Positions 1,466 through 45,191 of a stretch of 64,000 nt of DNA are shown piece by piece. A model generated the notes under the pieces. It did no database searches and had not been told where the DNA came from. It saw only the letters and a list, made by a program, of their open reading frames with translations. The position numbers and the translations under genes were made by a program. Within the stretch, counting starts at the first letter, position 1. The number at the start of each line of letters is the position of its first letter. The DNA lies in assembly GCA_965207585.1 (NCBI GenBank), contig CBDBMT010000002.1, positions 244,255 to 308,254 of the forward strand, in the 5' to 3' direction. The DNA comes from Dehalococcoidia bacterium (lineage in GTDB: Bacteria > Chloroflexota > Dehalococcoidia > Lucifugimonadales > UBA3495).

Positions 1466-1614
1466 GTCCATGCTTGAACGGGTGATGTTGCGTCGGTGTG
1501 CTCATCTGTCTTTGATGTCTATCTTGCTGACGCGAAAACGCGCCACACGGTGCGTTTGGTGGCGAAGCGTGGCTGGAAACGGCGGTGCCGGGTGGTTGCG
1601 ATTCGCGAGGCGTG

Positions 1615-2076
1615 TCATCCAGGTTCTGGTTCTTCGTACCTTACATACATTCCCTGAGCCCTCACGTGGGCGGAAACCACTTCCGGGCTGGCTTTGTCGC
1701 CCTCGGTGGCGATGTTGCGCATCTCCACGTAGATGGATGCTTGGATGAAGGCGTCTACGGGCTCGTATGCCCGGTAGCTTTGGTAGCAGACCACTCCTTG
1801 TTCGGGCCAGTGGCCGGGAGCTACGCAGTGAGCGCGTTCAGGGTTGTCCAGCATGGCTTGTTGCACTTGTTCCCACGCTGGTGCGGGCAGGTCGGTTTGC
1901 CGGCGAGCGTGCCGGAAGGTGTCGTGAGCCAGGGCCGCGTGATTGGTTGTCAGGTAACGTTCTGCGATGTCTTCGGCTTGGGCTTGGTGCCGGGTTGGCG
2001 CGGGGAGTGTTCCGTCGCAGTGCGGAACGGCTGCGAGCAGTGAGATGGTGAGAAGCGCAATGACTGACAGGGCCAT
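1615..2076 (-). CDS. hypothetical secreted protein or lipoprotein
   Basis: N-terminal signal-like MALSVIALLTISLLAAVPHC. No recognisable catalytic motif. Confidence 0.4.
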   Translation of the reverse strand: MALSVIALLTISLLAAVPHCDGTLPAPTRHQAQAEDIAERYLTTNHAALAHDTFRHARRQTDLPAPAWEQVQQAMLDNPERAHCVAPGHWPEQGVVCYQSYRAYEPVDAFIQASIYVEMRNIATEGDKASPEVVSAHVRAQGMYVRYEEPEPG

Positions 2077-2239
2077 TTGGGTTGACTTGATTCTGCTGGC
2101 TGGCTGCGTGGGCTTTATTCGGTGGTTGCGTTCGGGGCTTCATCGTGCCTGTTCTCGGGCTGCTTGGCAGATGCTGACGGCGGCTTCCTTCCAGGCTGGG
2201 CTGGTTTTGCGGACAGGCTTGATTCGCGCGCCGTTGTTG

Positions 2240-2800
2240 TCAACAAGGCCGAGTTCGTCCATGTCGGTATTGCGGCGGCTGGTGCGGCTGTTCTTGGAAC
2301 TGTTCCGGGATGCGTGCCGTGTCTTTTAGTCGTGCGGCTTCAGCGACTTCGGCGGCGGCGTGGCCGGCGAGCAGTTGGTCGAGGATCATGCCGTCGAGTG
2401 GGGACATGCAGGTGTACCTGCCTTGGAGACCGGCGGTTTTCATGACGGACGATATTTCTTGGGTGATGACGTCTTCGTCGAAGTAGTTGTAGACGCGGCC
2501 TTCGCCCGTGAACTTGCGGGTCGTGGACTCGATGCGGCAGGCTTGCCAGAATAGCCGGACGGTTTCGGCCGACACTTGGGCTGGGGGCTTGCCTTCGTCT
2601 CTCCGGAAGTGGAGCTCGGCGGAGCCGTCGGGCCGGTACTCGAAGTCGTTCCAGCGCACGTCGTCGGTGTCTCGTGGAGTGAGGTAGGCGTCGCGCATCA
2701 GGGCGATCATGGCGACGTTCTGGGCGGTGTATAGCTGGCGCCTTTTTTCGGCGTGGCTGGCGCGTATGTCGGCGGTGTTGGCCAGCAGCTGGTCGAGCAC
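2240..2800 (-). CDS. hypothetical protein, weakly tyrosine-recombinase-like but lacking obvious catalytic residues
   Basis: GTG start. The layout ...LTPRDTDDVRWNDFEYRPDGSAELHF...KTAGLQGRYTCMSPLDGMILDQLLAGH... loosely follows an integrase catalytic-domain pattern. Confidence 0.3.
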   Translation of the reverse strand: MLDQLLANTADIRASHAEKRRQLYTAQNVAMIALMRDAYLTPRDTDDVRWNDFEYRPDGSAELHFRRDEGKPPAQVSAETVRLFWQACRIESTTRKFTGEGRVYNYFDEDVITQEISSVMKTAGLQGRYTCMSPLDGMILDQLLAGHAAAEVAEAARLKDTARIPEQFQEQPHQPPQYRHGRTRPC

Positions 2801-3105
2801 TGGCCGGGTGATGGGATCGGGCCTGAGCCTTCTTTAGACCATGGCGAATGGTGGCAGCGTCACTTGGTTGCTCCTTTGGGCCTTGTGTTTACTCGAGCAT
2901 CCATGATGGACATACGCATTGTCCGGGTGGCTGTCGGCACTCGGCGCAGGCGATGGGCGTCCATTGTGGTCAGCCGCAGTCGCAGAGTATGTACGGGTAG
3001 CGGCATGGTGAGCCGTGCTGGCCTGTGGGTGATCGCAGCTGGCGTAGCCGTCGGTGGCTGGGCTGCGGAGCTGCATAGTGGCTTCGGTGTAGAAGGGCAT
3101 GGGGA

Positions 3106-3567
3106 TTACCTCGGCGTTTTGTCCATGGAGCAGGCTGCGTCCTGGTCTGTGATGGTGACGGCTTCTGGGTCGAGGACGACGAGGCAGGTGTTTTTCCGGC
3201 CGCCGTAAAGGTCGGCCCAGTAGGCGCGGTATCCCATGTCGTGCGCCAGCTTGGTGGCGGCTTCGTGGTACTCGGCGCGAGCCTTCCGGCGGTAGCCGTT
3301 TGCTTCGTCGGCCTCTACTTGGGTCATGGGCCGGCGTTCGTCGACCATATCGAGATACTGGCCGAACATTGGGGCCAGCGGCATCAGCGGGGCGCCTTCC
3401 GGTAGGTGTATTTTTGCTCGGATGACTCGCGGCGGTCCGTCCTGTGTTGACGGCTGCTGATATGAGCCGGACTCGGCGAATTGGCTGGCGATGTGCGCCT
3501 CGCGGGTGAAGCAGGTGCTGGGCTGAGGCATGTCAAACGGTGCGGCTCGGGTTCCCTGCATCCACAC
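3106..3567 (-). CDS. hypothetical protein
   Basis: ORF track only. Same strand as its neighbours in an apparent operon. Confidence 0.3.
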   Translation of the reverse strand: MWMQGTRAAPFDMPQPSTCFTREAHIASQFAESGSYQQPSTQDGPPRVIRAKIHLPEGAPLMPLAPMFGQYLDMVDERRPMTQVEADEANGYRRKARAEYHEAATKLAHDMGYRAYWADLYGGRKNTCLVVLDPEAVTITDQDAACSMDKTPR

Positions 3568-3743
3568 AAGGTGGCGCGCTGGTGTGGTGGAAACGTGCGA
3601 TTACGCCGGCTTTCCGGTGGCAATATCGACAGGTGCCGGTTGCCGATTTCAGTAGGTTGGATAGTGGCATGATGGCGTGCCTATTCATCGATTGTCTCGT
3701 GTCTTGGGCACCATGCGTTCGAAGGACGATGATTTGTTTCCTG

Positions 3744-5050
3744 TCATGCGCTTGCTTGGCCGCGGGTGACGACTCGGGCCGTGGTTGGCGCGGTTCGCGG
3801 AGTATCGGCCATGATTTGGCCCACGGCGGTGGGCTCGGTGGCGTCTGAGCCGTAGATCTTGCTCAGTTTGGCCTCGACTTGGCCGGCTTGCCGGCGCTGC
3901 TGGGCTATTCCCGACCCGAAGGCCACCGTCGTGTTCGGGAAGGCGCTGCGGAACTCGTCTCGGCGCAGGAGGTCTTGCACCTGTTCGTCCAGTATTGCGG
4001 TGGTGGGTTCGTCGAAGGGCAGGCTGAGCAGGATGGCTTGTTCCTGCTCGGTGTTTGCAGTGTGTGCTATTTCGGCGGTGTAGGTCCGGGATTGCGGGCC
4101 TGGCTCGGCGAGTTTCCATACTGCTTCGGTCAATTCTGCTGCGGTCTCGTTGATGCTTGAGCGTTCCTCCATTCCGTCGTGCGGCTTGGCGCTGCGGTTG
4201 AAGAATGCGCGGCGTTGGCGTTGGCCGCGCTCTGCGTTTTCGCGGAACGGGATGCGGTTCTGGCTGATGGCCAGGAACCGGTTTCCGGCCTGTTCGTGGC
4301 CGGCGACCAGCTCAGTGGGGCGGCGTACGCTGACGTCGCGTACGGCGGCGAGTTCTGCGGCCGTCAGGGCTTCAATAGCCAAAGCGTCGATGGTGGGCGG
4401 GTCGCCAAAGGCGTTGTCGCTGAGCAGTACTGGGGTTGCTGGTCCGATGCTGGACAGCAGCTCTTCCCACAGGCCGTAGTCTCGGAGGTTGCGTTCGAGC
4501 GCCGGTTCGGCAGGTATTGCCACTACCGGCAGCATGGCGGCTGCAGGGAATGTCTCCTCCAGCATGCGGTAGACGACATGCCCCAGGCGCACGTGTCCGC
4601 CAAAGCCGAGAAAGACGATGACCAGCTGTGCGCGTGATCCTGAGCGGCTGACGATGGCGCGGGCTTCTTCGAGCATGTGCTCGAGGTCGGCGCCCACGGC
4701 GGCTTGGTGTTGCATCCAGGCGTCGGGGCGGCGCAGGAACCCGTCGCTGAAGGGAAGGAACTCCTGCGTGACCGTGATTTTGTCAGCGCCGGCGTGTTGC
4801 ATTGCGGGCAGCCAGTGGCGCAGGTTCGCGGAATTCAGGTCATAGGCGATTATGGCGCTGACGCGGTGGCTGATGCCGTATTCCTGGCTGGCTTTCCAGT
4901 AGCGGCAAGGCGGTTCAGTGCGGCAGAGCCGATGCCGGCGACGACGACGGGTGATGGGTCCTCGTCCTGGGTTTCGATGCTGCCGAGGCTGGCCACGCGG
5001 CCGCGTGCGTCGTAGGTGGTGTTTTGCTTCTTTCCGATGCCGAATGGCAT
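3744..5050 (-). pseudogene. FtsZ/tubulin-superfamily-like gene with a degenerate GTP loop and an apparent frameshift near 4900-4915
   Basis: AAGGAGG lies 5 nt before the ATG at 5050. Frame 1 gives ...VVVAGIGSAALNRLA; frame 2 continues RYWKASQ...VSAIIAYDLNSANL...LVIVFLGFGGHVRLGHVV...VVAIPAEP...VLLSDNAF. The blocks are collinear with FtsZ IKVIGVGGGGGNAV / AVNTDAQAL / AAGMGGGTGTGAAP / VVTKPF / IPND. Confidence 0.5.
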
Positions 5051-5124
5051 GCCGGCCTCCTTATGGTTGTTCCAACTGAAGTGGTTGCTGGGGTCGTGGA
5101 CGCCGTTGCAAACGGCGCAGTAGG

Positions 5125-5397
5125 TCATGTTGGGACCTTTCCTTGCTTTGGCTGCGTGGCGCGCTTTTCGGGGCGTCGGTGGCTTTCCATGAATTCGAGT
5201 GCTGCCGCGGTGACGGCTGGATGAGTTCGGCCGCAGTAGAGGCACGTGTCGTTGCCGTAACCGGAGGTGTACCGGTGCGGGCACTCGATGGAGGGTAGTG
5301 CCTTTTCTGGGGGCTGCCAGCGTATGCTGAAGCGGTTGCCGACGGCTGGCGTGCTGGTGTGTTCCACTGGCGTATGGATTTGGGCGTTTTGGCTCAT
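5125..5397 (-). CDS. hypothetical small Cys/His-containing protein
   Basis: Internal ATG of the long 5125..6255 read-through ORF. Contains ...ECPHRYTSGYGNDTCLYCGRTH... Confidence 0.25.
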   Translation of the reverse strand: MSQNAQIHTPVEHTSTPAVGNRFSIRWQPPEKALPSIECPHRYTSGYGNDTCLYCGRTHPAVTAAALEFMESHRRPEKRATQPKQGKVPT

Positions 5398-5426
5398 GGT
5401 GTGGGGTTTTCCTGGATTGCAGTTGA

Positions 5427-5648
5427 TCAGACCGTCGAGGCGTTGTTTGCTCGCGGGTAGGTTCTGATGAACAGCTCCGTCATCTCTTGATTGCGTTCTG
5501 CGATGTTGTCCTCGTCCCACTTTTCTCTGGGGATTGCGGTTAGGGCGGCGCTCATGCGGGTTGAACTGTTGCGGAGCTCCGCCATTTTCATTTGCCAATC
5601 CAGATTTTCGATGTTCCGGCTGTGTTGACTCTTGATGATGGTAGTCAT
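5427..5648 (-). CDS. hypothetical small helical protein
   Basis: ORF track. Locally lower GC and charged helical composition. Confidence 0.3.
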   Translation of the reverse strand: MTTIIKSQHSRNIENLDWQMKMAELRNSSTRMSAALTAIPREKWDEDNIAERNQEMTELFIRTYPRANNASTV

Positions 5649-5814
5649 GTTGCCGATTTTGCCGGCGGCTTCTCGTCGTGATTCCCGAGTGGGGCGGCGG
5701 CGTGCCGAGGGGTACGAGGACCATGATGCTTCGTCGTTGGGGAAGAGCAGCAGTGACTCGAGGCGATTTCCCTACTCCGACTGCACCGAGGTGCAACAAG
5801 ATCCAACAGGCAAT

Positions 5815-5995
5815 CCGCTTGCGGCCGAGTCGCTCGGCAGCGATGGCGACATAGGCGCAGCCAGCGAAACAGTCCAGTACGATGCCGTCCTCGGGGCAGG
5901 ACGCCTTGATGATGCGCTCGGCAAGGGCGACGGGCTCCTGGGTGGGGTAGCCAGTGCGTACACTGGACGAGTTAGGTATGTGAGGAACATCATCC
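5815..5995 (-). pseudogene. C-terminal fragment of a beta-class (DPPF-type) DNA methyltransferase, paralogous to 40246..42069
   Basis: DDVPHIPNSSSVRTGYPTQEPVALAERIIKASCPEDGIVLDCFAGCAYVAIAAERLGRK aligns with DLWLGIPATKGIERTGYPTQKPVALAERIIRASCPEDGVVLDCFAGCAYVAIAAERLGRN in the intact gene. Confidence 0.75.
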
Positions 5996-6087
5996 CATCT
6001 AAAACTTTGAAAAGGACTTGGAGGGCAGGACATACGCTTTGGCTTCTGCTCGTCCTTGGGTTTCCCATTTTTGGCCTGCGATGTTAC

Positions 6088-6129
6088 AAAAAACTCCCGC
6101 CGGTCAGTTTGGCGACGGCCCGACGGGAG
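6088..6129 (-). terminator. intrinsic-terminator-like hairpin followed by U6 (minus-strand reading)
   Basis: Stem CTCCCGCCGG...CCGACGGGAG has one mismatch. The adjacent A6 on the plus strand (6088-6093) reads as T6 after the stem on the minus strand. Confidence 0.45.
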
Positions 6130-6148
6130 TTGAAGGAGGAATGTGCTG

Positions 6149-6358
6149 ATGAATGACTTGTGCCGAATCTTGGTAGCGGTTTTTGGATCGCTCGCTGCGT
6201 TTTTCACTGCAGCAAGCATTGTGATCTTTTTGTATTGTCGCAACTCGGACTTCACTCAATTGACGACTGAGCAGTGCGTTGCGCTTCTAGTGCTGTGTCT
6301 TGCGGTGGCTGCGATATGCGCCGTAACCGTCGTACTTCTCGTACGAGCAGGTAAATAG
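6149..6358 (+). CDS. small two-TM membrane protein, hypothetical
   Basis: GGAGGA at 6135-6140 lies 8 nt before the ATG at 6149. Two hydrophobic helices. Sits in an AT-richer insert inside the decayed methyltransferase. Confidence 0.4.
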   Translation: MNDLCRILVAVFGSLAAFFTAASIVIFLYCRNSDFTQLTTEQCVALLVLCLAVAAICAVTVVLLVRAGK

Positions 6359-6437
6359 CCATCAGCATCAGGAGCATGACGAGCATCATCATCCCATGGA
6401 GCACCCAGTGGATAAGTTCGTTGATTCCGCAGTCCAT
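6252..6437 (-). CDS. small hydrophobic peptide with basic tail, antisense-overlapping 6149..6358
   Basis: GAGGA lies 6 nt before the ATG. TM run WVLHGMMMLVMLLMLMAIYLLV is followed by REVRRLRR. The terminator at 6088-6129 is downstream on the same strand. Confidence 0.3.
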   Translation of the reverse strand: MDCGINELIHWVLHGMMMLVMLLMLMAIYLLVREVRRLRRISQPPQDTALEAQRTAQSSIE

Positions 6438-6438
6438 T

Positions 6439-7080
6439 TTAATTCCTCAATGTTTGCACGTGGTTGATGTAGGCACCGCGGTTGGCGGCATTCAGGGGAT
6501 TGTCAGTCGTCCCTGAGATTTTTTTGACCGTGACGGTTGCCACCTGGGGACGCTTGCCCGGCGCGGTGGCTGTTGTGCGCTGGAGAGGAAGTAAGCGTAG
6601 CATTCGCTGATTGGGCTTTCGTCGCAGTTCACGGGTATGCCGGCTCATCAGGCGCTTGGCTGGCGCGCTGCGTTGCATCTCGTCCAGCGCGTCTTGGAGG
6701 CCGTCGAAGGCGACTATGTTGGCGGAGATGGGTTGAAGTCCGGCTTGCTCGCTCCAGTAGGAGAGGGATGGGTACCTCGCCGTTGCGGCGAGCAGCAGCA
6801 GGCTGTGTGTCTTGCCGCCGCCGTAGCGGCTGTACAGCTGGTAGACGGCCGGGGCGGTGCTGTCTGGTCCCTTGGCTACCTGGTCTGTGGCCATGTGCAG
6901 GAAGTCGGCGGTGGCCTTGGTGAGGTGGGTGGTGGCGAGGAAGTCGGTGGTGGAGTTGGGGCTTGCCAGTTCCTGGGCCAGGCCGTTGATGATGTCGGCG
7001 GCGTACTGATCGCCGGCTTGCCGGATGGGACGCGGCGGGCACGCGGTGAGCAGCGGCGTGAGGTTGGTCGTGTTGGTCAT
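6439..7080 (-). pseudogene. chimeric remnant: N-terminal fragment of a DUF499-like P-loop ATPase, read through into an N-terminal remnant of the methyltransferase
   Basis: Walker A context LYSRYGGGKTHSLLLLAATARY. The C-terminal DNPLNAANRGAYI matches MADNPLNAVNRGVYI at 40246. The sequence between is low-complexity read-through. Confidence 0.5.
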
Positions 7081-7172
7081 GGTATCCAGAACCTTGAAAA
7101 GTCTCTTCCTGGTGGAAGGCTTGCAACATTCTGGATTGTAATGACCGTTCCCCGTTTTGCCCCGGGAGCGCG
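7081..7172 (-). promoter_or_regulatory. conserved structured leader, copy A, ending 4 nt before the ATG at 7080
   Basis: About 90 nt nearly collinear with 40155..40245. Contains TACAAT, outer arms TCCAGAA/TTCTGGA separated by exactly 37 nt, and inner hairpin CTTCC-n4-GGAAG. Confidence 0.5.
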
Positions 7173-7196
7173 GTTGAACGCCGCTGTTCCTCGGTA

Positions 7197-7571
7197 GTGG
7201 CTACCGATTTTTCCAATGACGCGCTGTTCGATATTTGTTTGCCGGTACAGGCTACGCGGTTGGTCTTCCAAGTGCTCTTTGGGTGGTCCGGTTTCAACTG
7301 GAAACGCCTCCTGGGAGCGTTGTACTGCCCGGGAAGCGAAGTTTTCCTGGATGGTGGAGAGCGGTACTATGCGGCGAGATTCGAGACTACTGGAGAGCTG
7401 GGAGCTGTGAATACGAGACCGTCATTCTGTAGATGCAGCGTCTGTGGCTTACCGCTTGACCATCAGGGCAACTGCCCCGACATGTATGAGCATGTCAATG
7501 CGGCCTATGACGATGATGACCTGTACGACGACGATGTCCGGGATGACTTTGACCCGTTTGACGGCGATTGA
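7197..7571 (+). CDS. hypothetical protein with CxxC...C motif and acidic tail; true start uncertain
   Basis: ORF track. Contains CRCSVCGLPLDHQGNCPDMYEH and a D-rich C-terminus. The 5' part overlaps leader copy A. Confidence 0.25.
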   Translation: MATDFSNDALFDICLPVQATRLVFQVLFGWSGFNWKRLLGALYCPGSEVFLDGGERYYAARFETTGELGAVNTRPSFCRCSVCGLPLDHQGNCPDMYEHVNAAYDDDDLYDDDVRDDFDPFDGD

Positions 7572-7727
7572 TGCTGTTGCCGGCCGGCTCCTGTCATCAG
7601 AAGGCGTAATGGGGGCCGTTGAGGTAGACGCGGGTGCCGGCGCGCTGGTTCGGCCTTTTCGACGCCGATTTGCCTGGTGGCTTCGATGGCTCTGCGCTGG
7701 CTTCGGCCAACGCCGGTCGAGTGGCCG

Positions 7728-7748
7728 CCGTTTTGCCCCGGGAGCGCG
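7728..7748 (+). repeat. third, partial copy of the leader 5' box (CCGTTTTGCCCCGGGAGCGCG)
   Basis: Identical 21-mer at 7152-7172. Its reverse complement occurs at 40155-40175. Confidence 0.8.
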
Positions 7749-7803
7749 TTTCGTAGAGGTGATCACACCCGCCGATGATCGGTTGCATTCGGTTCAGTTA
7801 TCT

Positions 7804-9612
7804 TCAGCGGCGTCGGAACTCCTGCTCCAGTCGCAGTGTTGAGATCTGGACGATGGTGGGCCGACCGTGGGGACAGTGGTGGGGCTCGGGCGTTTCGGCC
7901 AACTGGTCGATGACGGCCTGCATCTCATCCACGCTCAGCGTGTCGCCGGCGCGGGTTGCCGAGTGGCATGCGATGGTGGCGGCGATGGCTTGTTGCGGTG
8001 AGCTGATTATTTGCTCTGCGGCGAATTCGTCCAGCAGTTGCTGTAGGACTCGTTCCGGTCCTGGGCAGTGCGGTGCTGTCAGCGGTAAGGGAATGGCGTT
8101 GATCTGCCATGTTAGTTCCCCGAGATGCTGTAGGCTGAACCCCTGTTGCTCGATGAGCGTGAGGTGTTCCACCAGTGCCTCGTGCTGAAACGCGTCGAGA
8201 GTGGCTTGCTCGGGAAGCATCAATTTCTGTGAGTTGTCTGGTTGGTTCGTGCGTTGTCGGAACACGCGGTCGAAGATGACCCGTTCGTGAGCGGCGTGCT
8301 GGTCGAGGATATGTAGTCCGCCTGGGCCTTCTGCAAGGATGAAGGTGCGCTGTGCTTGGCCGATTAGCCGCAGCTGGGGGATGGTGTCTCTGAGGTTGTG
8401 TCCGGCCTGTAGGTCAGTGGTGACGAGTGGGTCGTCTAGTTGCTGTTGACTGCGCCTTTCGCTGTCGTGTCGGGCTGCTGACGGACTGGTGTTGCCGTAG
8501 TCCAGGATGGGGCGGGTGATACCTGGTTCCGGCCTAAATCGGGCGTTGTCCGCTGGCTCCGGGCGGCGGTAGTTTCGTTGACTCGTGCTCGCGAAAGGCC
8601 GGTTGGTCGCTTGGTGGATGACGCCGTGAGCGGAGAGCGCTTCGCGAACGGCGCGCTGGATGGCGGCGAAAATCTTCGACTCGTGGCGGAAGCGAACTTC
8701 CTGCTTGGTTGGGTGCGCGTTCACGTCGACCATATCGGCGGACACCGTCAGGTGGAGCACGGCGACGGGGCGTCGGCCCATGGGCAGGGAGTTGCCGTAG
8801 CCCTGCTCGATGGCGTAGGCAAGGTTGCTGTCTTGCACCCAGCGGCCGTTGACGGTTACTGAGATGTCGTTGCGGTTGGAGCGGTGGATGTCGGTGTTGC
8901 CGACGTAGCCGGAGACATGTGCGTCGTCGGCGTCGAGCAGCACTGGCAGCATTCGAGTGGCCGTGTCGTGGCCCATGATGCTGAGTATGGTTTCCTGGAG
9001 CTTGCCGGTGCCGTTGGTGCGGAAGGTCTCGTTGCCGTCGTTGGAGTACGAGAAGCGCACATGGGGGTAGGCCATGGCGTAGCGAGCCACGACGCGCTGG
9101 GCGTGGGCGGCTTCGGTGGGTTTCGTGCGCAGGAACTTGAGTCTGGCGGGCTGGTTGCCGAACAGGTTCTCGACGGTGATGTTGGCGCCTGCGGCGCTGC
9201 CGGCAGGCCGTGGTGGTCCTTCGCGTATGCCGTACGTGATCCGGTACTGGGTGGCGGCTGCGTCGTTGGCGTTGTACGTCACGCACGTGAGCTTTGAAAC
9301 GGCGGCGATTGACGGCAGGGCTTCGCCCCGGAATCCCAGGGTGTCTATGCTGAGTAGGTCTTCGACGTTGCGCAGCTTTGAGGTGGCGTGTCTCGAGAAT
9401 GCGGTCTCGACCTGATGTGCCGGTATGCCGGTGCCGTTGTCCTGCACTCTGATGAGCTTGGTGCCGCCCTCTTCGATGGCGACTGATATTTTGGTGGCGC
9501 CGGCGTCGATGGCGTTTTCGACCAGTTCCTTTACGACGGAGGCGGGGCGTTCGACGACTTCGCCGGCGGCTATTTGGGCGGCAACGTTGGGAGGTAGAAT
9601 TTGTATGTCCAT
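7804..9612 (-). CDS. mutL: DNA mismatch repair protein MutL
   Basis: N-terminal GHKL ATPase signature MDIQILPPNVAAQIAAGEVVERPASVVKELVENAIDAG. C-terminal ...CPHGRPT... endonuclease-type block. Confidence 0.95.
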   Translation of the reverse strand: MDIQILPPNVAAQIAAGEVVERPASVVKELVENAIDAGATKISVAIEEGGTKLIRVQDNGTGIPAHQVETAFSRHATSKLRNVEDLLSIDTLGFRGEALPSIAAVSKLTCVTYNANDAAATQYRITYGIREGPPRPAGSAAGANITVENLFGNQPARLKFLRTKPTEAAHAQRVVARYAMAYPHVRFSYSNDGNETFRTNGTGKLQETILSIMGHDTATRMLPVLLDADDAHVSGYVGNTDIHRSNRNDISVTVNGRWVQDSNLAYAIEQGYGNSLPMGRRPVAVLHLTVSADMVDVNAHPTKQEVRFRHESKIFAAIQRAVREALSAHGVIHQATNRPFASTSQRNYRRPEPADNARFRPEPGITRPILDYGNTSPSAARHDSERRSQQQLDDPLVTTDLQAGHNLRDTIPQLRLIGQAQRTFILAEGPGGLHILDQHAAHERVIFDRVFRQRTNQPDNSQKLMLPEQATLDAFQHEALVEHLTLIEQQGFSLQHLGELTWQINAIPLPLTAPHCPGPERVLQQLLDEFAAEQIISSPQQAIAATIACHSATRAGDTLSVDEMQAVIDQLAETPEPHHCPHGRPTIVQISTLRLEQEFRRR

Positions 9613-9704
9613 ACTTACTCATTCCTTTCGGAAATCCGGGACTGGAAGAACATCCCGGAGTGTTGTTGCTGAATTAGGTCAATCGGCGTGTCCCGTGCAA
9701 TCGT

Positions 9705-10035
9705 GTTTCAATCCCCACCCGCCCTTCAGGGCGGGTGCTACCGGCGGATTGGAAGCCGTCGCGCTCGCGATTTTGAAGTTTCAATCCTCACCCGCCCGAA
9801 AGGGCGGGTGCTACTGGGTTCCAATCGGCACCGACCCCCTGACCCGCAGGATTGTTTCAATCCTCACCCGCCCGAAAGGGCGGGTGCTACGTCAGGTACC
9901 GGCGGCTTATGGCCGCACTGCAGGCAGTTTCAATCCTCACCCGCCCGAAAGGGCGGGTGCTACACCCGGTGCTGGAGATCGTAACCGTGCCTGTGCCAGT
10001 TTCAATCCTCACCCGCCCGAAAGGGCGGGTGCTAC
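9705..10035 (-). CRISPR. CRISPR array, 5 repeats of 37 nt with 4 spacers (36, 39, 36, 35 nt); type I-C-like repeat
   Basis: Repeats at 9705, 9778, 9854, 9927 and 9999: GTTTCAATCCTCACCCGCCCGAAAGGGCGGGTGCTAC. The minus-strand reading ends in ATTGAAAC. The 9705 repeat is degenerate (trailer end), and the leader is on the cas2 side. Confidence 0.95.
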
Positions 10036-10188
10036 TCCTATTCGGGGTTTTTCTACTTGAACATCGCGAACCTCCTGTTTTCTCGCCGGGCGAGCGTTAA
10101 AATTCACGGTTTTCGTCGCGTCGATTTAGTACGGCGTAAGCACGAACGCGAACCTCCTGCTTGAAAGGGCAATCGCAACGGGTTCGCG
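10036..10188 (-). promoter_or_regulatory. CRISPR leader
   Basis: Lies between the cas2 stop and the first repeat. Carries a direct repeat of CGCGAACCTCCTG at 10064 and 10146 (minus-strand reading CAGGAGGTTCGCG). Confidence 0.6.
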
Positions 10189-10488
10189 TCACACCAGCAG
10201 CGGACCGCTGAAGTCGATCACATTGCTGATTCCGTATTCCTCGACCCGGTGCTTGCGCCCGCCGGGAATCTTGTAGAACCGGATGCTGTCTTCGTTCTCG
10301 TCCATGATGTCGAGCAGATTGGCCTTCATTTCGATGAAAGTCGTGTCGCTGACCGTGCATTCAAAAACTGACTTCTGGACCCGCTGGCCGTAGTCTTCAC
10401 AAGTTTTCGCTACCCGCCGCAGGCGCGCACGGCCCTCGGTAGTTTCGGTACTGACGTCGTATGTAACCAGAACCCACATTGCGTTCAC
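10189..10488 (-). CDS. cas2: CRISPR-associated endoribonuclease Cas2
   Basis: MWVLVTYDVSTETTEGRARLRRVAKTCEDYGQRVQKSVFEC is a typical Cas2 N-terminus. Overlaps the cas1 stop by 4 nt. Confidence 0.9.
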   Translation of the reverse strand: MNAMWVLVTYDVSTETTEGRARLRRVAKTCEDYGQRVQKSVFECTVSDTTFIEMKANLLDIMDENEDSIRFYKIPGGRKHRVEEYGISNVIDFSGPLLV

Positions 10489-11519
10489 CGGGACACGAAG
10501 GCGGGATAATGTTGCAGGTCTCCACGCAGATGACGTGCCAGCAATCGGGCTTGCAGATGCGGCAAAAGCCCAATGGGCGTCTTGCGTTGCGCCACTGGAT
10601 GCGTGATCTCTTCCGCCTTCCGTTTCTGATAATTCGTTAGCAATGTCTTTCGACCTTCCTCGGTGAGAGAGACACCACCGCCCAGGCTGGTTTCGAAGTG
10701 CTCGGAGTTCAGTTGGCGCCGGTTGATCAGCGTCAACGCCAAGCGGTCGGCCAAGAATGACCGAAACTCCTCCATCAGGTCAAGCGCGAGTGATGGGCGA
10801 CCAGGGCGGACCGCATGGAGAAAACCGATTTGGGGGTCCAAGCCGACACCTTCGCAAGCGGCTTGGCATTCCGCCCGGACCAGCGCGTAAAGGAACGACA
10901 GCATGGCGTTGATGGGGTCCCGAGGTGGGCGCCTGTTTCTGCCGTCGAATTTGAAAGCCGGATCCGGCGCGCGTATCAGGTGGTCGAAAGCTGAGAAGTA
11001 CACCGCGCCGGCGCGACCCTCGTTGCCGCGGATCTCGTTCAGGGTGCCTGCCTTCTCCAAGTCACCGATGGTGTCCGCCATGTACTTTGCGGCTTGCCGC
11101 AGCTCGGCCTCTGATTCAGTTTCCCGGGTCTGACGCGCCTCTCTCATCAGGAGTGAGCGGCCGTTCTGCACCTTGGCAGCCACGATGTTTCGGGCGATGG
11201 CGGCGGAGCGTTCGTGGTCCTGATACGCTTCATGCTGCGCCAGCCGGAGCAGTACGTTTCCCGAAGTCGGACCTACTACTTTAGCCCGAAAGCGACCGCT
11301 GCGGCTGAGAAAGACCAGATCGCGCTGGTCTTCGGCGCATTGCGCCATGGCGGCCGGGGACACGCTTACTCTGCCGAAGCAGACCACGGCTCCCAGGTGG
11401 TGCACCGGGACCTGTAGGAGCGTCGCGCCGTCCGCTTCGACTTTGAGAGTGCGGTGGTCGACGTGTACGTAGGCCCCTTGGGTGGAGACGTACAGGGTGT
11501 TGAGTAGTTCGTGGGCCAC
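10485..11519 (-). CDS. cas1: CRISPR-associated endonuclease Cas1 (I-C type)
   Basis: LLNTLYVSTQGAYVHVDHRTLKVE... is Cas1-like. A GTG at 11519 is preceded by GAGGA, while the longer ORF to 11603 adds a non-Cas1-like basic extension. Confidence 0.88.
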   Translation of the reverse strand: MAHELLNTLYVSTQGAYVHVDHRTLKVEADGATLLQVPVHHLGAVVCFGRVSVSPAAMAQCAEDQRDLVFLSRSGRFRAKVVGPTSGNVLLRLAQHEAYQDHERSAAIARNIVAAKVQNGRSLLMREARQTRETESEAELRQAAKYMADTIGDLEKAGTLNEIRGNEGRAGAVYFSAFDHLIRAPDPAFKFDGRNRRPPRDPINAMLSFLYALVRAECQAACEGVGLDPQIGFLHAVRPGRPSLALDLMEEFRSFLADRLALTLINRRQLNSEHFETSLGGGVSLTEEGRKTLLTNYQKRKAEEITHPVAQRKTPIGLLPHLQARLLARHLRGDLQHYPAFVSR

Positions 11520-39611: not shown

Positions 39612-40154
39612 GATTTCTCCTCTGCGCCGGTGGTGGCCGGCATTGGTTGGCGGCGTCCGGCTTCGTCTCCTTGTTGAAACTGTGTGGAGCGGAGTTGCCA
39701 ATGGCATGTTGTATTTTGCGCACCTCCTGTTGGTCTTGGGAGTAAATGTAGCGAAACGCGACGTTTGCGGTTTTGCGGTTATGTCCGGTATCGGATGGCG
39801 GCGGAATCTGCCGTCAGCTCGTGTCTCCGGTTGTGACGGCCTTTGATTTCATTCATGTTCGTCGTCGCGCCAGTGGCGTCAATGTGGTCGGCCCCGGCTG
39901 GTATTTCACTGGCTGCCTCCGTCGGTGGTGACGGGAGGCGCTGACATAACGTTACGGCATCGGCAGGGCGCGACGCCGTTTTTGGGCGCTCTCCCGGGCA
40001 TGGGGACGCGGTTTGCGGGGACCGGCGGGGTGTAGGCGGGGAGCGGGCGACGCTCGGGTGACGGGGCGTCTGAAGCGGTTCACGGCTCCGGTGAGGTGAG
40101 GGAACGGCGGTTGGGACGACGTGGTGTTGACTGTGATCAGCGGGTGGCGCGGTT

Positions 40155-40245
40155 GCGCTCCCGGGGCAAAACGGGGGCTGGTCACTACAATCCAGAATGT
40201 TGGGAGCCTTCCGCAAGGAAGGGCTGCGCGAGCGTTCTGGAAACC
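40155..40245 (+). promoter_or_regulatory. conserved structured leader, copy B, ending 4 nt before the methyltransferase ATG
   Basis: Same boxes as copy A: GCGCTCCCGGGGCAAAACGGGG, TACAAT, and TCCAGAA-37 nt-TTCTGGA enclosing CCTTCC-GCAA-GGAAGG. Confidence 0.5.
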
Positions 40246-42069
40246 ATGGCCGACAATCCGCTGAATGCCGTCAATCGCGGCGTCTACATCGCCGACAACC
40301 TTGATTTCCTCAAGTCGTTGAGTGACGGGTGCGTCGACCTGGTGTGCATTGACCCGCCGTTCGCCAAGAACGAAACCTTCGGGCGAAAGAACGACAGGTC
40401 GCCGGATCCGCTGAAGCCGCCGCTGACGAACGAAGAGCGCATGACGGAGTTGGCGCTGCTGGGGCGTTGGGGCATTCGCAACGAGGCGGATGCCGAGAAG
40501 GCCGGCATTGACTGGCCGGATACTCGCTACAAGGACTTCTGGTCTTGGGAGGGGGATGTCCACGAGTCTTGGCTGCGGGACATCGAGGACGACCATCCGT
40601 CCATTGCCAAGCTGATTGACGTGACCAGAGACATTCACGGCGACGGCACCGCGGCCTACCTGTGCTACATGGCCGTCAGGCTTTTTGAGATCAAGCGCGT
40701 ACTGAAGGACACCGGCAGCCTGTACCTGCACTGCGACCACACGGCTGGTGCCTACTTGCGACAATTGCTGGACGGCGTTTTCGGCCGACGGAATTTCCGC
40801 AGTGCGATTTCGTGGGAACGCAATGACGGACGTGGCAAAGGTAGTCAGCACGCTCCCAAAACATGGGGGGTTCAGACTGACACCATTCTCTACTACGCCA
40901 AATCTGACCGAGCCGCGCTGAATCCAAACATCGCAATCAATGCGGACGACGCTGAAAGAGATTTCCCACGCGTCGACGCAGCGGGTCGCCGGTACAAGAC
41001 AGGGATTCCCGTCTTCTGCTCGAAGTCCATGGGCGCCAGACCAAATCTATGCTTTGAGTGGCGGGGTTACGCTAATCCGCATCCAAGCGGCTGTCGACTT
41101 TCCAAAGAACGATTGGAAGAAGAGTATCAACGCGGCAACGTAGTCATTCGGGCAAACGGAAAACTTGAGCGGCGCAAGTACCTCGACGAATACGCAGGCA
41201 GACCCGTTGGCGACTTGTGGTTGGGCATTCCAGCCACCAAGGGCATTGAACGCACTGGCTACCCTACGCAGAAGCCCGTCGCCCTAGCAGAGCGCATCAT
41301 CAGGGCATCCTGTCCCGAGGACGGCGTCGTACTCGACTGCTTCGCCGGCTGCGCTTACGTGGCCATCGCTGCTGAGCGCTTGGGCCGCAACTGGGTCGAC
41401 TGCGACATCAATCCCCGCGCTTGGACGGTCTTCAAGCGGCAGTTCAGCAAGCCCAAACTTGCCCTGCTGACGTGTGCCGAGCCCATGCCGGCTCTTGGTC
41501 AGCAGCGACCGCTACAGGCGAACTCTGTCACCGTGCACGGGCCGTGCGAGTTGCCGAAGGATACGATTCGTACTGAGAACGTGCCGCGGCCATTGCCGCC
41601 GCCCAAACCTGTTACCTACAAGCGGCGAACTAGCATCATTTCGCCGCAGCGGATGCTGGAGTTCCTCTTGGATTTGTCGGACTACACCGCTTGGTGTTGT
41701 GGCTTCGCCAACCGTAAGCCCAGTGGTGAAGTCGTGCGTACGGCGAACAATTTTCACCTTGACCACCTGGACCCCAAGTCCAAAGACGGTTCCGACGAGA
41801 TCTTTAACCGGGCCCCGTTGTGCCCGCATCACAACGTTCACAAGAACGTGCGTCGCGTTCACCTTGATGACTACCGTCGGGAGATTGCCGCTGCTGGCGA
41901 ACTGCTGGTGGACGGTGTTGACGACTTGGTCCACCTGGCCTGGGCCAGGGATCAGGTGATGGACTTCTGGGCCCAGGAACGCATGAAGTTCCCGCCCCAA
42001 GTTGACTTGCAAGGGCGATCGCACTTGGTGCGGCCCGGTGGGCGGCGGCGTTCCGGCGGCGGAACGTAG
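40246..42069 (+). CDS. beta-class N4/N6 DNA methyltransferase fused to a C-terminal HNH-like nuclease domain
   Basis: DPPF motif (VCIDPPFAKNE), the catalytic/AdoMet region and TGYPTQKPVALAERII...VLDCFAGCAY. C-terminal FHLDHLDPKSKDGSDEIFNRAPLCPHHNVHKN. Confidence 0.88.
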   Translation: MADNPLNAVNRGVYIADNLDFLKSLSDGCVDLVCIDPPFAKNETFGRKNDRSPDPLKPPLTNEERMTELALLGRWGIRNEADAEKAGIDWPDTRYKDFWSWEGDVHESWLRDIEDDHPSIAKLIDVTRDIHGDGTAAYLCYMAVRLFEIKRVLKDTGSLYLHCDHTAGAYLRQLLDGVFGRRNFRSAISWERNDGRGKGSQHAPKTWGVQTDTILYYAKSDRAALNPNIAINADDAERDFPRVDAAGRRYKTGIPVFCSKSMGARPNLCFEWRGYANPHPSGCRLSKERLEEEYQRGNVVIRANGKLERRKYLDEYAGRPVGDLWLGIPATKGIERTGYPTQKPVALAERIIRASCPEDGVVLDCFAGCAYVAIAAERLGRNWVDCDINPRAWTVFKRQFSKPKLALLTCAEPMPALGQQRPLQANSVTVHGPCELPKDTIRTENVPRPLPPPKPVTYKRRTSIISPQRMLEFLLDLSDYTAWCCGFANRKPSGEVVRTANNFHLDHLDPKSKDGSDEIFNRAPLCPHHNVHKNVRRVHLDDYRREIAAAGELLVDGVDDLVHLAWARDQVMDFWAQERMKFPPQVDLQGRSHLVRPGGRRRSGGGT

Positions 42070-43718: not shown

Positions 43719-44087
43719 ATGATGATTTTCGACATCGATACCGCGGTTCGTATTGGCGAGGTGCTGCGTGGGCAGGAGCGGGTGGTTGGAGTCGTCAACT
43801 ACTCGGTCATTGACTCTTTGGACGATGTCCGCACCAAGCGCCAGCTTTTGCTGGGTCACCTCAGGATGATGGAAGACGCAGGTTGGGTAACGGATGTAGG
43901 TACGTACAATATCGCGGGTGATTTTCAGGCTCGACTGACGTATGGCGGTCAGCTGTGGCTGGACGTGGTTCAGGATGAAAGCCTGTTGCAGCGGGTGCGC
44001 GATGTCGTGACGGAGTTTGGCCTTGTTGCCGCGAACAGCGTTGTGGTCGAGGTCATTAAGTCAATCGCGTCTAGGGTCGGTCAGTAA
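43719..44087 (+). CDS. small wHTH-like protein, hypothetical; distant paralog of 42071..42490
   Basis: ...LLGHLRMMEDAGWVTDVGTYNIAGDFQARLTYGGQLWL... has the same DUF2513-like pattern. Confidence 0.5.
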   Translation: MMIFDIDTAVRIGEVLRGQERVVGVVNYSVIDSLDDVRTKRQLLLGHLRMMEDAGWVTDVGTYNIAGDFQARLTYGGQLWLDVVQDESLLQRVRDVVTEFGLVAANSVVVEVIKSIASRVGQ

Positions 44088-44518: not shown

Positions 44519-44801
44519 CGCGTCGGTGGGGTGGTAGATCCATTGGTGACGTCGATTGCCTTGTTGGATGCCGAGAGTGGGTTGTGCTCTGTAGGCGATG
44601 TGGCCTTGTGGGGCTGAGGATGGCCTTGTTGCATAGGTCAGTCTGCTGGCTGTTGTGCATCCCCTGTCACCGTGAGGGTAGTTTGCTTTATGCTATGATG
44701 CTCGACAGCCGATTGTCAGTTTCTCCGCATTCACAGAGGTCTAACTGGTAAGGCTGGATCAAATAATGTCCCCGCACCAATCGATCAGGAGAGAATCGAC
44801 C

Positions 44802-45191
44802 ATGACCACGTCACAGTATCCAACGCAGCGGATGCGGGAAGCCGATAAAGCAATTGCAGCCATCGAGATGGCAACGATTAACCAGAACAGCGAAAGAGCT
44901 GGCCTCGTCGCCAACACACCGGGCAGCTGCCCGGCATACATCTCGGCCAATGCCCGCCAAGTCGCGCGTGATGCCCGCGAACTGGCGGAGCAGATCCACA
45001 ATAACGCTGAAGAATACGTGCTAACGCCACTACTGGCCGCCCTGACCGCCGCTGTACTGCGACATCAAGCAAACGTGCTCGATGAAGAAGTCAGCGACTT
45101 CGAGATTGAACTCGACCGCAGTACGGAAGCACTCAACGACATGAAAGAAGAGTCCGACTACTACATGAGAAACATTCACTTCAACTCGTAG
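44802..45191 (+). CDS. hypothetical helical protein
   Basis: AGGAGAG lies 7 nt before the ATG at 44802. Helical composition. Confidence 0.45.
   Translation: MTTSQYPTQRMREADKAIAAIEMATINQNSERAGLVANTPGSCPAYISANARQVARDARELAEQIHNNAEEYVLTPLLAALTAAVLRHQANVLDEEVSDFEIELDRSTEALNDMKEESDYYMRNIHFNS

What the first reader, a model, noticed from the sequence alone, without database searches (positions are those of the whole stretch)
40155..40245. Conserved structured roughly 90-nt leader ending at the start codon of two different defence-type genes
The sequence before the methyltransferase ATG (40155-40245, plus strand) is nearly collinear with the sequence before the ATG of the DUF499-like ATPase remnant (7081-7172, minus strand).

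Shared elements:
- GCGCTCCCGGGGCAAAACGGGG.
- GGTCA(Y)TACAATCCAGAATGTTG, which contains a TACAAT -10-like hexamer.
- Outer arms TCCAGAA...TTCTGGA, separated by exactly 37 nt in both copies.
- An inner hairpin: CCTTCC-GCAA-GGAAGG in one copy and CTTCC-TGGT-GGAAG in the other.

The loop and the linker between the stems differ (ctgcgcgagcg versus gacttttcaagg), while the stems and spacing are kept. The translated frames across the shared box differ between the copies, which argues against coding conservation. The 3' arm ends 4 nt before the ATG, so the structure would occlude the ribosome-binding region.

The 21-mer CCGTTTTGCCCCGGGAGCGCG recurs a third time at 7728-7748. This could be a shared translational control element or protein-binding operator for a family of restriction/defence genes. 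With only two full copies there is no true compensatory covariation yet.
Basis: seen in the sequence. Interest (0 to 1): 0.6.

Follow-up and report, generated by a model that had tools for sequence, protein, structure and literature searches.

The report
Structured promoter-leader module before defence methylase genes
A roughly 95-base sequence that sits in front of several restriction-type methylase genes in a few marine SAR202-like (Chloroflexota) genomes looks like a portable promoter joined to an RNA hairpin that hides the start codon; this is a plausible but untested expression-control device, interesting mainly to specialists.

Summary
Copies A (40156-40251, +) and B (7170-7075, -) are collinear with no indels, and a 20-nt stub (C) lies at 7747-7728.

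It is not a two-copy duplication. I found 11 full copies (nine distinct sequences) and two partial ones (C and f). They occur in four of 54 genomes of the genus and in two TARA metagenome scaffolds, and nowhere else that I searched.

Conservation is patchy:
- The box CGCTCCCGGGGCAAAACGG is 100% conserved among the four A-type lineages compared.
- TACAAT is 100% conserved in all copies.
- Paired positions are 88-92% conserved.
- Other unpaired positions are only 33-58% conserved.

Diverged copies (e, g, h) keep the helices through compensatory changes: CCAGAA/UUCUGG becomes CCGAAA/UUUCGG, and CCUUCC/GGAAGG becomes UCUCUU/AAGAGG. A further helix pairs GGUCAY, just upstream of TACAAT, with the start codon (AUGRCC).

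Best reading (confidence about 0.4): a portable weak promoter plus a fold-back 5' leader. Transcripts arriving from upstream would fold and hide the start codon. Transcripts from the module's own -10 would lack the 5' arms. This resembles how IS10, IS50 and IS200 protect their transposase genes.

Several copies sit on truncated gene stubs. The element is a new, lineage-restricted variant of a known kind.

The parts
40156..40174 (+). Copy A: 5' box CGCTCCCGGGGCAAAACGG. It is the 5' boundary of the module and lies in the -35 region if TACAAT is the -10. It can also form a small hairpin, CUCCCG/CGGGGG.
   Evidence: Identical in 19 of 19 positions in lineages A, b, c and B. The core GCTCCCGGGG is kept in e, f, g and h. 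The distance from CCCGGGG to TACAAT is 19 nt in all copies (read).
40180..40185 (+). Copy A: GGTCAC, the 5' arm of helix P2, which pairs with the start codon region.
   Evidence: Pair column 27/95 is U-G in six copies, U-A in two and C-G in one.
40186..40191 (+). Copy A: TACAAT, the presumed -10 box.
   Evidence: Invariant in all 11 full copies and in the partial copy f, while neighbouring unpaired positions are near saturation. The genome's rRNA promoter is TTGACA-17 nt-TAAAGT.
40191..40241 (+). Copy A: helix P3, a 51-nt rod-like hairpin (UCCAGAAUGUUG...CGUUCUGGA) enclosing the inner hairpin.
   Evidence: Predicted energy -28.5 kcal/mol. Compensatory changes occur in e, g and h.
40207..40222 (+). 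Copy A: inner hairpin CCTTCC-GCAA-GGAAGG. The 3' arm is purine-rich and Shine-Dalgarno-like.
   Evidence: The loop differs in every lineage. In e the stem is UCUCUU/AAGAGG in the same alignment columns.
40246..40251 (+). Copy A: ATGGCC, the start codon plus codon 2, forming the 3' arm of P2.
40246..42069 (+). Gene served by copy A: a 607-aa beta-class N6/N4 DNA methyltransferase with a C-terminal HNH-like motif. It is intact.
   Evidence: Pfam PF01555 at E 2.8e-30; HNH at E 3.8e-4, just below the curated cut-off. PADLOC assigns MTase_II / MTase_III.
7152..7170 (-). Copy B: 5' box.
7135..7146 (-). Copy B: GGTCAT (5' arm of P2) followed by TACAAT.
   Evidence: In B, P2 is a perfect 6-bp helix, GGUCAU/AUGACC.
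7085..7135 (-). Copy B: P3 hairpin.
   Evidence: Predicted energy -21.5 kcal/mol.
7075..7080 (-). Copy B: ATGACC, the start codon plus codon 2, forming the 3' arm of P2.
6439..7080 (-). ORF served by copy B: a 213-aa chimera. It consists of a DUF499/HmaC-like N-terminal stub of about 130 aa, then filler, then a stub of about 15 aa from a methylase N-terminus (DNPLNAANRGAYI).
   Evidence: PADLOC HmaC E 1.7e-4 and DUF499 E 1.6e-3. Translation; junction.
7728..7747 (-). Copy C: a stub holding only the 5' box, 57 nt downstream of the mutL stop. It occupies the position of the full copy c in genome G013.

Best explanation
The element is a discrete, portable expression module of about 95 nt that travels with a family of beta-class N6/N4 DNA methylase (restriction-modification-type) cassettes in one SAR202-like Dehalococcoidia genus. 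In one lineage it also heads a DUF499-type ATPase gene.

Inferred layout:
- 5' third, a weak or factor-dependent promoter: the invariant box GCTCCCGGGG, a 19-nt variable spacer, then the invariant TACAAT.
- Remainder, a 5' leader whose RNA folds into a rod. P2 pairs GGUCAY (just upstream of TACAAT) with AUGRCC. P3 is a 51-nt hairpin that starts at the last T of TACAAT and ends 4 nt before the AUG.

Inferred mechanism: the -10 box lies between the 5' arm of P2 and the 5' arm of P3. A transcript made from the module's own promoter would start about 6-8 nt downstream of TACAAT. It would lack the P2 5' arm and half of the P3 5' arm, leaving ...UUCUGGAAACCAUG single-stranded. This gene has no Shine-Dalgarno sequence, so it depends on an open start region.

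Transcripts entering from upstream (for example from mutL, or from a preceding cassette in a tandem array) contain both arms. They fold back and hide the start codon. Expression would therefore depend only on the module's own promoter. This is the fold-back protection described for IS10/IS50 and is close to the layout of the IS200 left end.

Shown: the element, its copies, patchy purifying selection, compensatory base-pair changes, and fixed spacings.
Inferred: the promoter function, the position of the transcription start, and the insulation role.

A broader claim, that this is a cis-acting promoter plus structured 5' leader controlling initiation, I hold at about 0.65.
For: 1. Discrete module. 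Similarity starts at (G)CGCTCCC in four unrelated upstream contexts (A/a/b, c, B/d, e/f-type) and ends a few nt past the ATG.

2. Patchy conservation.
- Among lineages A, b, c and B: box 19/19 and paired positions 42-44 of 48.
- TACAAT 6/6 in every pair compared, including those with e.
- Across all pairs of A, b, c, B and e: other unpaired positions only 8-14 of 24.
- Third codon positions of the adjoining CDS in A, b, c and e (B's CDS was not compared): 64-77%.
This rules out a uniform recent duplication.

3. Structure under selection. On nine distinct sequences, 91% of cells are paired. Seven pairs (16 cells) changed on both sides. The covariation score is 0.324 against 0.207 +/- 0.021 in shuffles (0 of 500 reach it), and slid controls give 0.134 or less. 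Copy e alone supplies five compensated pairs on an unfitted MAFFT alignment.

4. RNA on the sense strand. G-U pairs are frequent. The sense fold is 10-14 kcal/mol more stable than the antisense fold in A, a and b, and more stable also in e and B, but not in c.

5. P2 pairs with the start codon in every live copy, at 5-6 bp, and is perfect in B and e.

6. Promoter-like geometry. There are two invariant blocks with a fixed 19-nt variable spacer, and the module begins about 40 nt upstream of the predicted +1. The genome's own rRNA promoter uses TTGACA-17 nt-TAnnnT. Copy A lies in a divergent intergenic region and so needs its own promoter.

7. No Shine-Dalgarno before the methylase ATG, although the genome uses GGAGG at -14 to -10. 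Start-site structure should therefore be decisive.

8. The decayed copy d has four substitutions, two of which break P3 pairs. Its predicted stability falls from -21.5 to -10.1 kcal/mol.

9. Analogous, non-homologous leaders occur before orthologous methylase genes elsewhere.
- L119 has a long, almost perfect hairpin (about 19 bp) over the Shine-Dalgarno sequence.
- L126 has a terminator followed by a hairpin whose arms flank a TATCAT. Its 3' arm ends 4 nt before AACC-ATG.

10. The mechanism is established for IS10 (Davis, Simons and Kleckner 1985, as cited in PMC13181058). [quoted passage not shown]
Against: - No transcription start data.
- The consensus scan calls no sigma-70 promoter here. 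At a 17-nt spacing the -35 would be GGGGCA, 3 of 6 matches to TTGACA.
- Predicted accessibility of positions -12 to +3 rises only from 0.21-0.35 in long RNA to 0.36-0.57 in short RNA. In b and c the AUG stays paired with the CDS in the short form.
- Copy A has a divergent upstream gene, so there is little read-through to guard against at that site.
- There are only about six independent lineages. All compensatory changes come from the e/g/h branch, and the nine-sequence alignment was fitted to the model.
- Several copies (a, c, d, e and window B) head truncated gene stubs, so present-day function is uncertain for them.
Confidence: 0.4

Rival explanations
1. The whole element is a pure 5' UTR riboregulator. 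It would be transcribed from a promoter upstream of the box. The P2/P3 rod would keep translation off until a trans factor (protein, small RNA, helicase or temperature) opens it. UACAAU would be a conserved single-stranded recognition or ribosome standby site in the internal loop, not a -10 box.
For: - P2 and the compensated pairs at the base of P3 lie upstream of any start that TACAAT could direct, so an RNA containing them must exist for selection to act on them.
- The internal loop (CACUACAAU / AAACC) is A/C-rich, like known standby or enhancer sites (discussed for IS200 in PMC4513863).
- The -35 is poor.
Against: - Nothing upstream of the box is conserved between the four contexts, so a portable module would have no promoter of its own.
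- The arrangement of box, fixed 19-nt variable spacer and TAnnnT is promoter-like.
- No candidate trans factor is shared by the cassettes.
- No Rfam family matches.
Confidence: 0.2
2. The nested inverted repeats, and/or the box containing the CCCGGG palindrome, are double-stranded DNA operators for a transcription factor that co-regulates these defence genes. This would resemble controller-protein or BrxR-type control.
For: - The stems are almost invariant in sequence within the A/b/c/B group, as expected for sequence-specific recognition.
- The box contains a palindrome and lies over the -35 region.
- Half-site co-variation can mimic RNA covariation.
Against: - G-T 'pairs' are mismatches in a DNA palindrome.
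- Both nested palindromes changed in e/g/h, which would need two specificity changes.
- In g the inner helix keeps pairing in a shifted register.
- P2 pairs promoter-proximal bases with coding bases 60 nt away.
- No regulator gene is common to the cassettes.
- The motif occurs nowhere else in the genome.
- The box alone could still be a protein site; that is compatible with the best explanation.
Confidence: 0.1
3. The element has no function of its own. The copies would be leftovers of serial duplication and recombination of methylase cassettes, kept alike by gene conversion.
For: - The loci are mosaics with many truncated stubs.
- a/b and e/f also share 90-140 nt upstream of the box.
- A and a are 99.6% identical up to codon 142 and unrelated beyond it, which is a recombination junction.
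Against: - Conservation is sharply patchy at single-block resolution.
- Helices are kept by compensatory changes.
- The length from -10 to ATG is 54 nt in all copies (53 in e), despite saturated internal sequence.
- The copy in the deadest locus (d) is the one losing base pairs.
Confidence: 0.07
4. The element is a recombination site, attC-like or otherwise a cassette junction, at which defence cassettes are exchanged by a site-specific recombinase acting on a folded single strand.
For: - The element is an imperfect palindrome with a variable loop.
- It lies immediately upstream of successive genes in tandem (a then b; c then d).
- The cassettes behind it differ between near-identical genomes.
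Against: - The outer boxes do not read RYYYAAC...GTTRRRY. Here GTTG comes first and CAAC second, as read from the sequence (attC consensus from my own knowledge).
- There is no tyrosine recombinase anywhere on the window's 350-kb contig.
- The observed junction between A and a lies inside the CDS at codon 142, not in the element.
- P2 covaries with the start codon of the downstream gene.
Confidence: 0.04

Closest known systems
Fold-back inhibition of IS10/Tn10 and IS50/Tn5 transposase mRNA (protection from external promoters; Davis, Simons and Kleckner 1985, cited in PMC13181058)
   Same: An inverted repeat has its 3' arm over the translation start and its 5' arm upstream of, or across, the element's own transcription start. 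Only read-through RNA can therefore fold and be silenced. The module is portable and lands in varied contexts.
   Different: Here it sits on defence methylase cassettes, with no transposase or terminal inverted repeats. The structure is a two-helix rod of about 70 nt rather than a short repeat. The start site is only predicted. Most of what I know of the IS10/IS50 mechanism comes from my own knowledge; the cited paper says only that IS10 translation signals are sequestered in secondary structure.
IS200 left end (PMC4513863)
   Same: The order of parts is similar: a small GC-rich hairpin, then a weak promoter, then a long 5' UTR stem-loop that hides the initiation region. All of it is packed into about 100-140 nt before the ATG.
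   Different: The IS200 first hairpin is a proven bidirectional terminator. Here P1 has no U-tract and is not conserved in register in e, g and h. The IS200 stem-loop lies inside the native transcript and hides a strong Shine-Dalgarno sequence. Here there is no Shine-Dalgarno and the start codon itself is paired. No antisense RNA is evident.
Regulation of restriction-modification genes by controller (C) proteins, by methylase autorepression, or by antisense RNAs (from my own knowledge)
   Same: These are also dedicated cis elements in front of restriction-modification genes, and they limit or time methylase and nuclease expression.
   Different: No C gene or C-box-like repeat was found. The symmetric elements here behave as RNA helices. 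One identical module is reused on paralogous cassettes and on a non-methylase gene.
Integron attC sites and Vibrio-type chromosomal repeats
   Same: They are similar-sized imperfect palindromes with variable loops, repeated before successive cassette genes and very alike within a genome.
   Different: The consensus boxes are absent. There is no integrase on the contig. The element includes the start codon and a -10 box, and the recombination junction seen lies elsewhere.

Membership tests
IS10/IS50-type fold-back protection | An inverted repeat whose 3' arm covers the ribosome-binding site or start codon | tested here: met
   P2's 3' arm is AUGRCC itself. P3's 3' arm ends 4 nt before the AUG in all copies.
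IS10/IS50-type fold-back protection | The element's own transcription start lies downstream of, or inside, the 5' arm, so native mRNA cannot fold back | not testable with these tools
   This is only predicted from the position of the invariant TACAAT between the two 5' arms. Predicted accessibility changes only modestly.
IS10/IS50-type fold-back protection | Belongs to a transposable element that encodes a transposase | tested here: not met
   The downstream genes are a methylase and a DUF499 stub. The module has no terminal inverted repeats (read).
Sigma-70-type promoter | A -10 hexamer TAnnnT at conserved spacing from a -35 element | tested here: inconclusive
   TACAAT is invariant and CCCGGGG lies a fixed 19 nt upstream. 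The -35 matches TTGACA at only 3 of 6 positions, and the scan tool reports 0 promoters. The genome's rRNA promoter is canonical.
Any Rfam family (riboswitch, thermometer, leader) | Scores above the family's gathering threshold | tested here: not met
   The Rfam scan of the whole window found only five CRISPR-DR9 repeats at 9705-10035.
Conserved structured RNA (generic) | Base pairs maintained by compensatory substitutions beyond what shuffled and slid controls give | tested here: met
   Seven pairs (16 cells) changed on both sides. Covariation is 0.324 against 0.207 in shuffles (0 of 500 reach it) and 0.134 or less when slid. Caveats: few lineages, and one of the two alignments was fitted to the model.
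Integron attC | R''/R' boxes (RYYYAAC ... GTTRRRY) and an associated integrase | tested here: not met
   The boxes are absent on reading the sequence. There is no PF00589 match on contig C2.
Restriction-modification controller (C-protein) operator | A small helix-turn-helix C gene in the cassette and C-box repeats before it | not tested
   No protein is shared between the cassettes apart from a nuclease fragment. The small ORFs at 43719-44087 and 44766-45191 have no PADLOC hit and were not searched against Pfam.

The most novel reading that the evidence does not exclude
The element is a self-insulating 'plug-and-play' expression module for horizontally exchanged defence cassettes. It would combine a factor-dependent promoter with a fold-back leader that silences any read-through. 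Together with the conserved first ~140 codons of the methylase, it would also serve as the homology anchor through which new cassettes replace old ones, leaving the trail of leader-plus-stub remnants seen beside mutL. Orthologous methylases elsewhere have independently evolved analogous terminator / promoter / start-hiding hairpin leaders. This suggests that strict insulation from outside transcription is a general requirement of this methylase family.
Probability: 0.25. Interest if true: 0.55.

Novelty: new variant of a known kind. Interest (0 to 1): 0.4.

Why it matters
Defence islands are mosaics in which cassettes land behind arbitrary neighbours. How such genes avoid harmful mis-expression from outside transcription is rarely considered, and an unbalanced methylase or nuclease can be harmful. 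If the model holds, restriction-type cassettes use the same trick as insertion sequences: a promoter buried inside a fold-back that silences read-through RNA.

It would also give a new, easily testable RNA motif in an uncultured marine lineage (SAR202-like Dehalococcoidia), and a compact insulating part for synthetic biology.

If the model fails, the element is still a clear case of a lineage-restricted structured leader with real covariation. The scope is narrow, though: four genomes and two metagenome scaffolds.

Tried and rejected
- **Genome-wide regulon.** The box, the box-spacer-TACAAT pattern and TACAATCCRRAA occur only at the known copies in the 4.45-Mb genome. One 14-nt match, GGTCATTACAATCC at C3:1565595, is about what chance allows.
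- **Wider distribution.** I found no copies in any of these searches:
  - BLAST of 60 relatives.
  - Covariance models against 54 genomes of the genus, 400 of the order and 40 of the family.
  - A JGI metagenome pattern scan, which gave nine hits, all chance.
  - Viral contigs, with 23 chance hits for one pattern and none for the other.
  - Upstream regions of 17 other methylase orthologues.
- **Leaderless upstream ORF starting at the ATG in CCAGAATG.** Rejected for four reasons:
  - The peptide is not conserved.
  - The frame differs in e, where it is in frame with the methylase.
  - Copies g, h and f lack this ATG.
  - The genome shows no leaderless signature.
- **Coding N-terminal extension.** Rejected. 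The variable blocks show no codon pattern, and orthologues start at the same Met.
- **Methylase target-site autoregulation through CCCGGG.** CCCGGG occurs 2731 times, well within the range of 515-9163 seen for the other 6-bp palindromes counted (raw counts only). The paralogues also differ in their central regions. Left as unsupported.
- **P1 as a conserved helix.** In copies e and f a GC-rich hairpin is possible only in a different register, and c breaks a pair. Covariation without e was not significant. Left open.
- **Inversion between A and B.** G013 shares the window's arrangement, so there is no evidence for it.
- **Accessibility modelling of long versus short transcripts.** It gave only a modest, inconsistent difference.

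Full report
**What is there**

- Copy A runs from 40156 to the ATG at 40246 on the + strand.
- Copy B runs from 7170 to the ATG at 7080 on the - strand.
- A third site (C, 7747-7728, - strand) holds only the first 20 nt.

The 20-mer and the 23-mer around TACAAT are far beyond chance, with 0.01 and 0.00 matches expected. The whole 4.45-Mb genome has only these copies. Rfam knows nothing at these positions.

**Context**

Record titles of relatives place the genome in a SAR202-like Dehalococcoidia (Chloroflexota) assembly.

- Copy A heads an intact 607-aa beta-class N6/N4 methyltransferase with an HNH-like tail. It lies in a divergent intergenic region.
- Copy B heads a 213-aa chimera, made of:
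  - a weak DUF499/HmaC-like N-terminal stub;
  - filler sequence;
  - a 15-aa stub of another methylase N-terminus.
- Copy C lies 57 nt after mutL. This is exactly where the related genome G013 has a full copy (c).

Both loci are mosaics relative to close relatives. A and its counterpart in G013/G005 are 99.6% identical up to codon 142 of the methylase and unrelated beyond it. Most other copies head stubs of 15-142 codons.

**More copies**

BLAST and two covariance models were run against 54 genomes of the genus, 400 of the order and 40 of the family. Copies turned up only in G005, G013 and G004.

Fetching the DNA that encodes the closest methylase homologues added two TARA metagenome copies, g and h.

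In total there are 11 full copies, giving nine distinct sequences, plus two partial ones. The partial copy f keeps only the 5' half. All full copies except B and d precede the same methylase family, whose products start MADNPLNAVNRGVYI. Metagenome and viral pattern scans gave only chance hits.

**Selection**

Conservation is sharply patchy.

| Region | Lineages compared | Conserved |
|---|---|---|
| Box CGCTCCCGGGGCAAAACGG | A, b, c, B | 19 of 19 |
| TACAAT | A, b, c, B, e | 6 of 6 |
| Paired positions | A, b, c, B | 42-44 of 48 |
| Other unpaired positions | A, b, c, B, e | 8-14 of 24 |
| Third codon positions, adjacent CDS | A, b, c, e | 64-77% |

A recent duplication cannot give this pattern. 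Two spacings are fixed:
- CCCGGGG to TACAAT is 19 nt.
- TACAAT to ATG is 54 nt (53 in e).

**Structure**

Single-sequence folds have z-scores of -4.0 to -6.7. They show three helices.
- **P1:** a small hairpin in the box.
- **P2:** GGUCAY, just 5' of TACAAT, pairs with AUGRCC (start codon plus codon 2).
- **P3:** a 51-nt rod from the last T of TACAAT to 4 nt before the AUG.

The 'variable linker' is part of P3: its last 5 nt pair with the invariant UGUUG.

Among the six close copies there was no significant covariation. The diverged copies changed that:
- The outer arm CCAGAA/UUCUGG became CCGAAA/UUUCGG, swapping two pairs.
- The inner stem CCUUCC/GGAAGG became UCUCUU/AAGAGG in the same columns.
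- P2 became the perfect GGCCAU/AUGGCC in e.

Counts on two alignments:
- On the unfitted MAFFT alignment with e, five pairs changed on both sides (0 of 500 shuffles reach this).
- On nine sequences, 91% of cells are paired and seven pairs (16 cells) changed on both sides.
- The nine-sequence covariation score is 0.324 against 0.207 +/- 0.021 in shuffles (0 of 500), and 0.134 or less when slid. This alignment was fitted to the model.

Further observations:
- In g the inner helix is kept in a shifted register.
- G-U pairs are common.
- The sense strand folds better than the antisense in most copies. This favours sense RNA over a DNA operator.
- The decayed copy d has lost half its stability.
- P1 is not consistently conserved.

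**Mechanism**

The module begins about 40 nt upstream of where a TACAAT promoter would start transcription. It has the two-block, fixed-spacer layout of a promoter, although the -35 is poor.

The genome's rRNA promoter is canonical, TTGACA-17 nt-TAAAGT. The genome uses GGAGG Shine-Dalgarno sites, which this methylase start lacks.

TACAAT sits between the 5' arm of P2 and the 5' arm of P3. An own-promoter transcript would therefore lack those arms and leave the start region open. Read-through RNA would carry both arms and hide the AUG.

This is the fold-back protection known for IS10 (cited in PMC13181058). It is close to the IS200 left-end layout (PMC4513863).

Some orthologous methylases elsewhere carry non-homologous leaders built on a similar plan:
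- L119 has a long, almost perfect hairpin (about 19 bp) over the Shine-Dalgarno sequence.
- L126 has a terminator followed by a hairpin whose arms flank a TATCAT and whose 3' arm ends 4 nt before AACC-ATG.
- L120 has a box-like GTCCCGGGGCC, then 19 nt, then TAGAAT.

**Weaknesses**

- Predicted accessibility differs only modestly between long and short RNA.
- Independent lineages are few.
- Many copies sit on dead stubs.

**Rivals**

- A pure 5' UTR riboregulator made from an upstream promoter is the main rival (0.2).
- DNA operators (0.1), neutral leftovers (0.07) and an attC-like recombination site (0.04) fit less well. No integrase lies on the contig, and the observed junction lies inside the CDS.
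- A leaderless upstream ORF was rejected.

**Verdict**

The element is a new, lineage-restricted structured promoter-leader module, best read as an IS-like fold-back insulator on defence methylase cassettes. It is of moderate interest.

Noticed in passing
window 9705-10035 (-): A CRISPR array of five 37-nt repeats (Rfam CRISPR-DR9, 50-54 bits) lies immediately upstream of mutL.
   Followed up: no
window 3568-7800 and L035 (G013:C33) 5500-11300: Beside mutL there is a 'graveyard' of nested cassette remnants. Each keeps the leader and a short N-terminal stub: c with 43 aa, d with about 15 aa, and window B with a DUF499 stub of about 130 aa. This suggests repeated cassette replacement anchored on the conserved 5' end.
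   Followed up: partly
window 40671 / L034 10375: There is a sharp recombination junction. The window and G013/G005 are 99.6% identical from 39772 to codon 142 of the methylase and unrelated beyond it. G013/G005 then carry a second full cassette (b) in tandem.
   Followed up: partly
L034 7957-9366 (-) (G013:C1): G013 has a TnpB / IS605 OrfB-type gene (Cas12f1-like TNB domain, E 2e-18) inserted between the Calx-beta gene and leader a. It is absent at that place in the window.
   Followed up: no
L119 2920-3000; L126 about 960-1056; L118 and L127 upstream of the methylase ATG: Orthologous methylase genes in other metagenomes have unrelated leaders with strong hairpins over the start region:
- L119 has a long, almost perfect stem (about 19 bp) that contains the Shine-Dalgarno sequence.
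- L126 has a terminator plus a hairpin whose arms flank a TATCAT.
- L118 and L127 have GGAGGGY/GCCCUCC.
   Followed up: partly
window 39986-40005 (+): GCGCTCTCCCGGGCATGGGG, about 150 nt upstream of copy A, resembles the box GCGCTCCCGGGGCAAAACGGGG. It may be a decayed older copy or a chance match in GC-rich DNA.
   Followed up: no
genome contig C3:1565595 (+), outside the window: GGTCATTACAATCC, identical over 14 nt to the -10 region of copy B, lies inside a cluster of tyrosine-recombinase genes (C3:1564963-1574349). It could be chance or a shared promoter core.
   Followed up: partly
window 7191-7207 (+): A terminator-like hairpin, TCGGTAGTGGCTACCGA followed by TTTTTCC, lies on the + strand just upstream of copy B's box (which is on the opposite strand). 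It falls in the segment shared at 98% with G013.
   Followed up: no
window 7197-7571 (+): A 124-aa ORF with a CxxC...C motif and a very acidic tail (DDDDLYDDDVRDDFDPFDGD) lies between copies C and B. It has no Pfam or PADLOC hit.
   Followed up: no
L082 1130-1250 (G004:C9, - strand): A tandem duplication of about 60 nt (…gtaggcccaactggcgcgtgggccctgc…) lies upstream of the partial copy f. The motif cccaactggcgcgt also occurs upstream of copy e.
   Followed up: no
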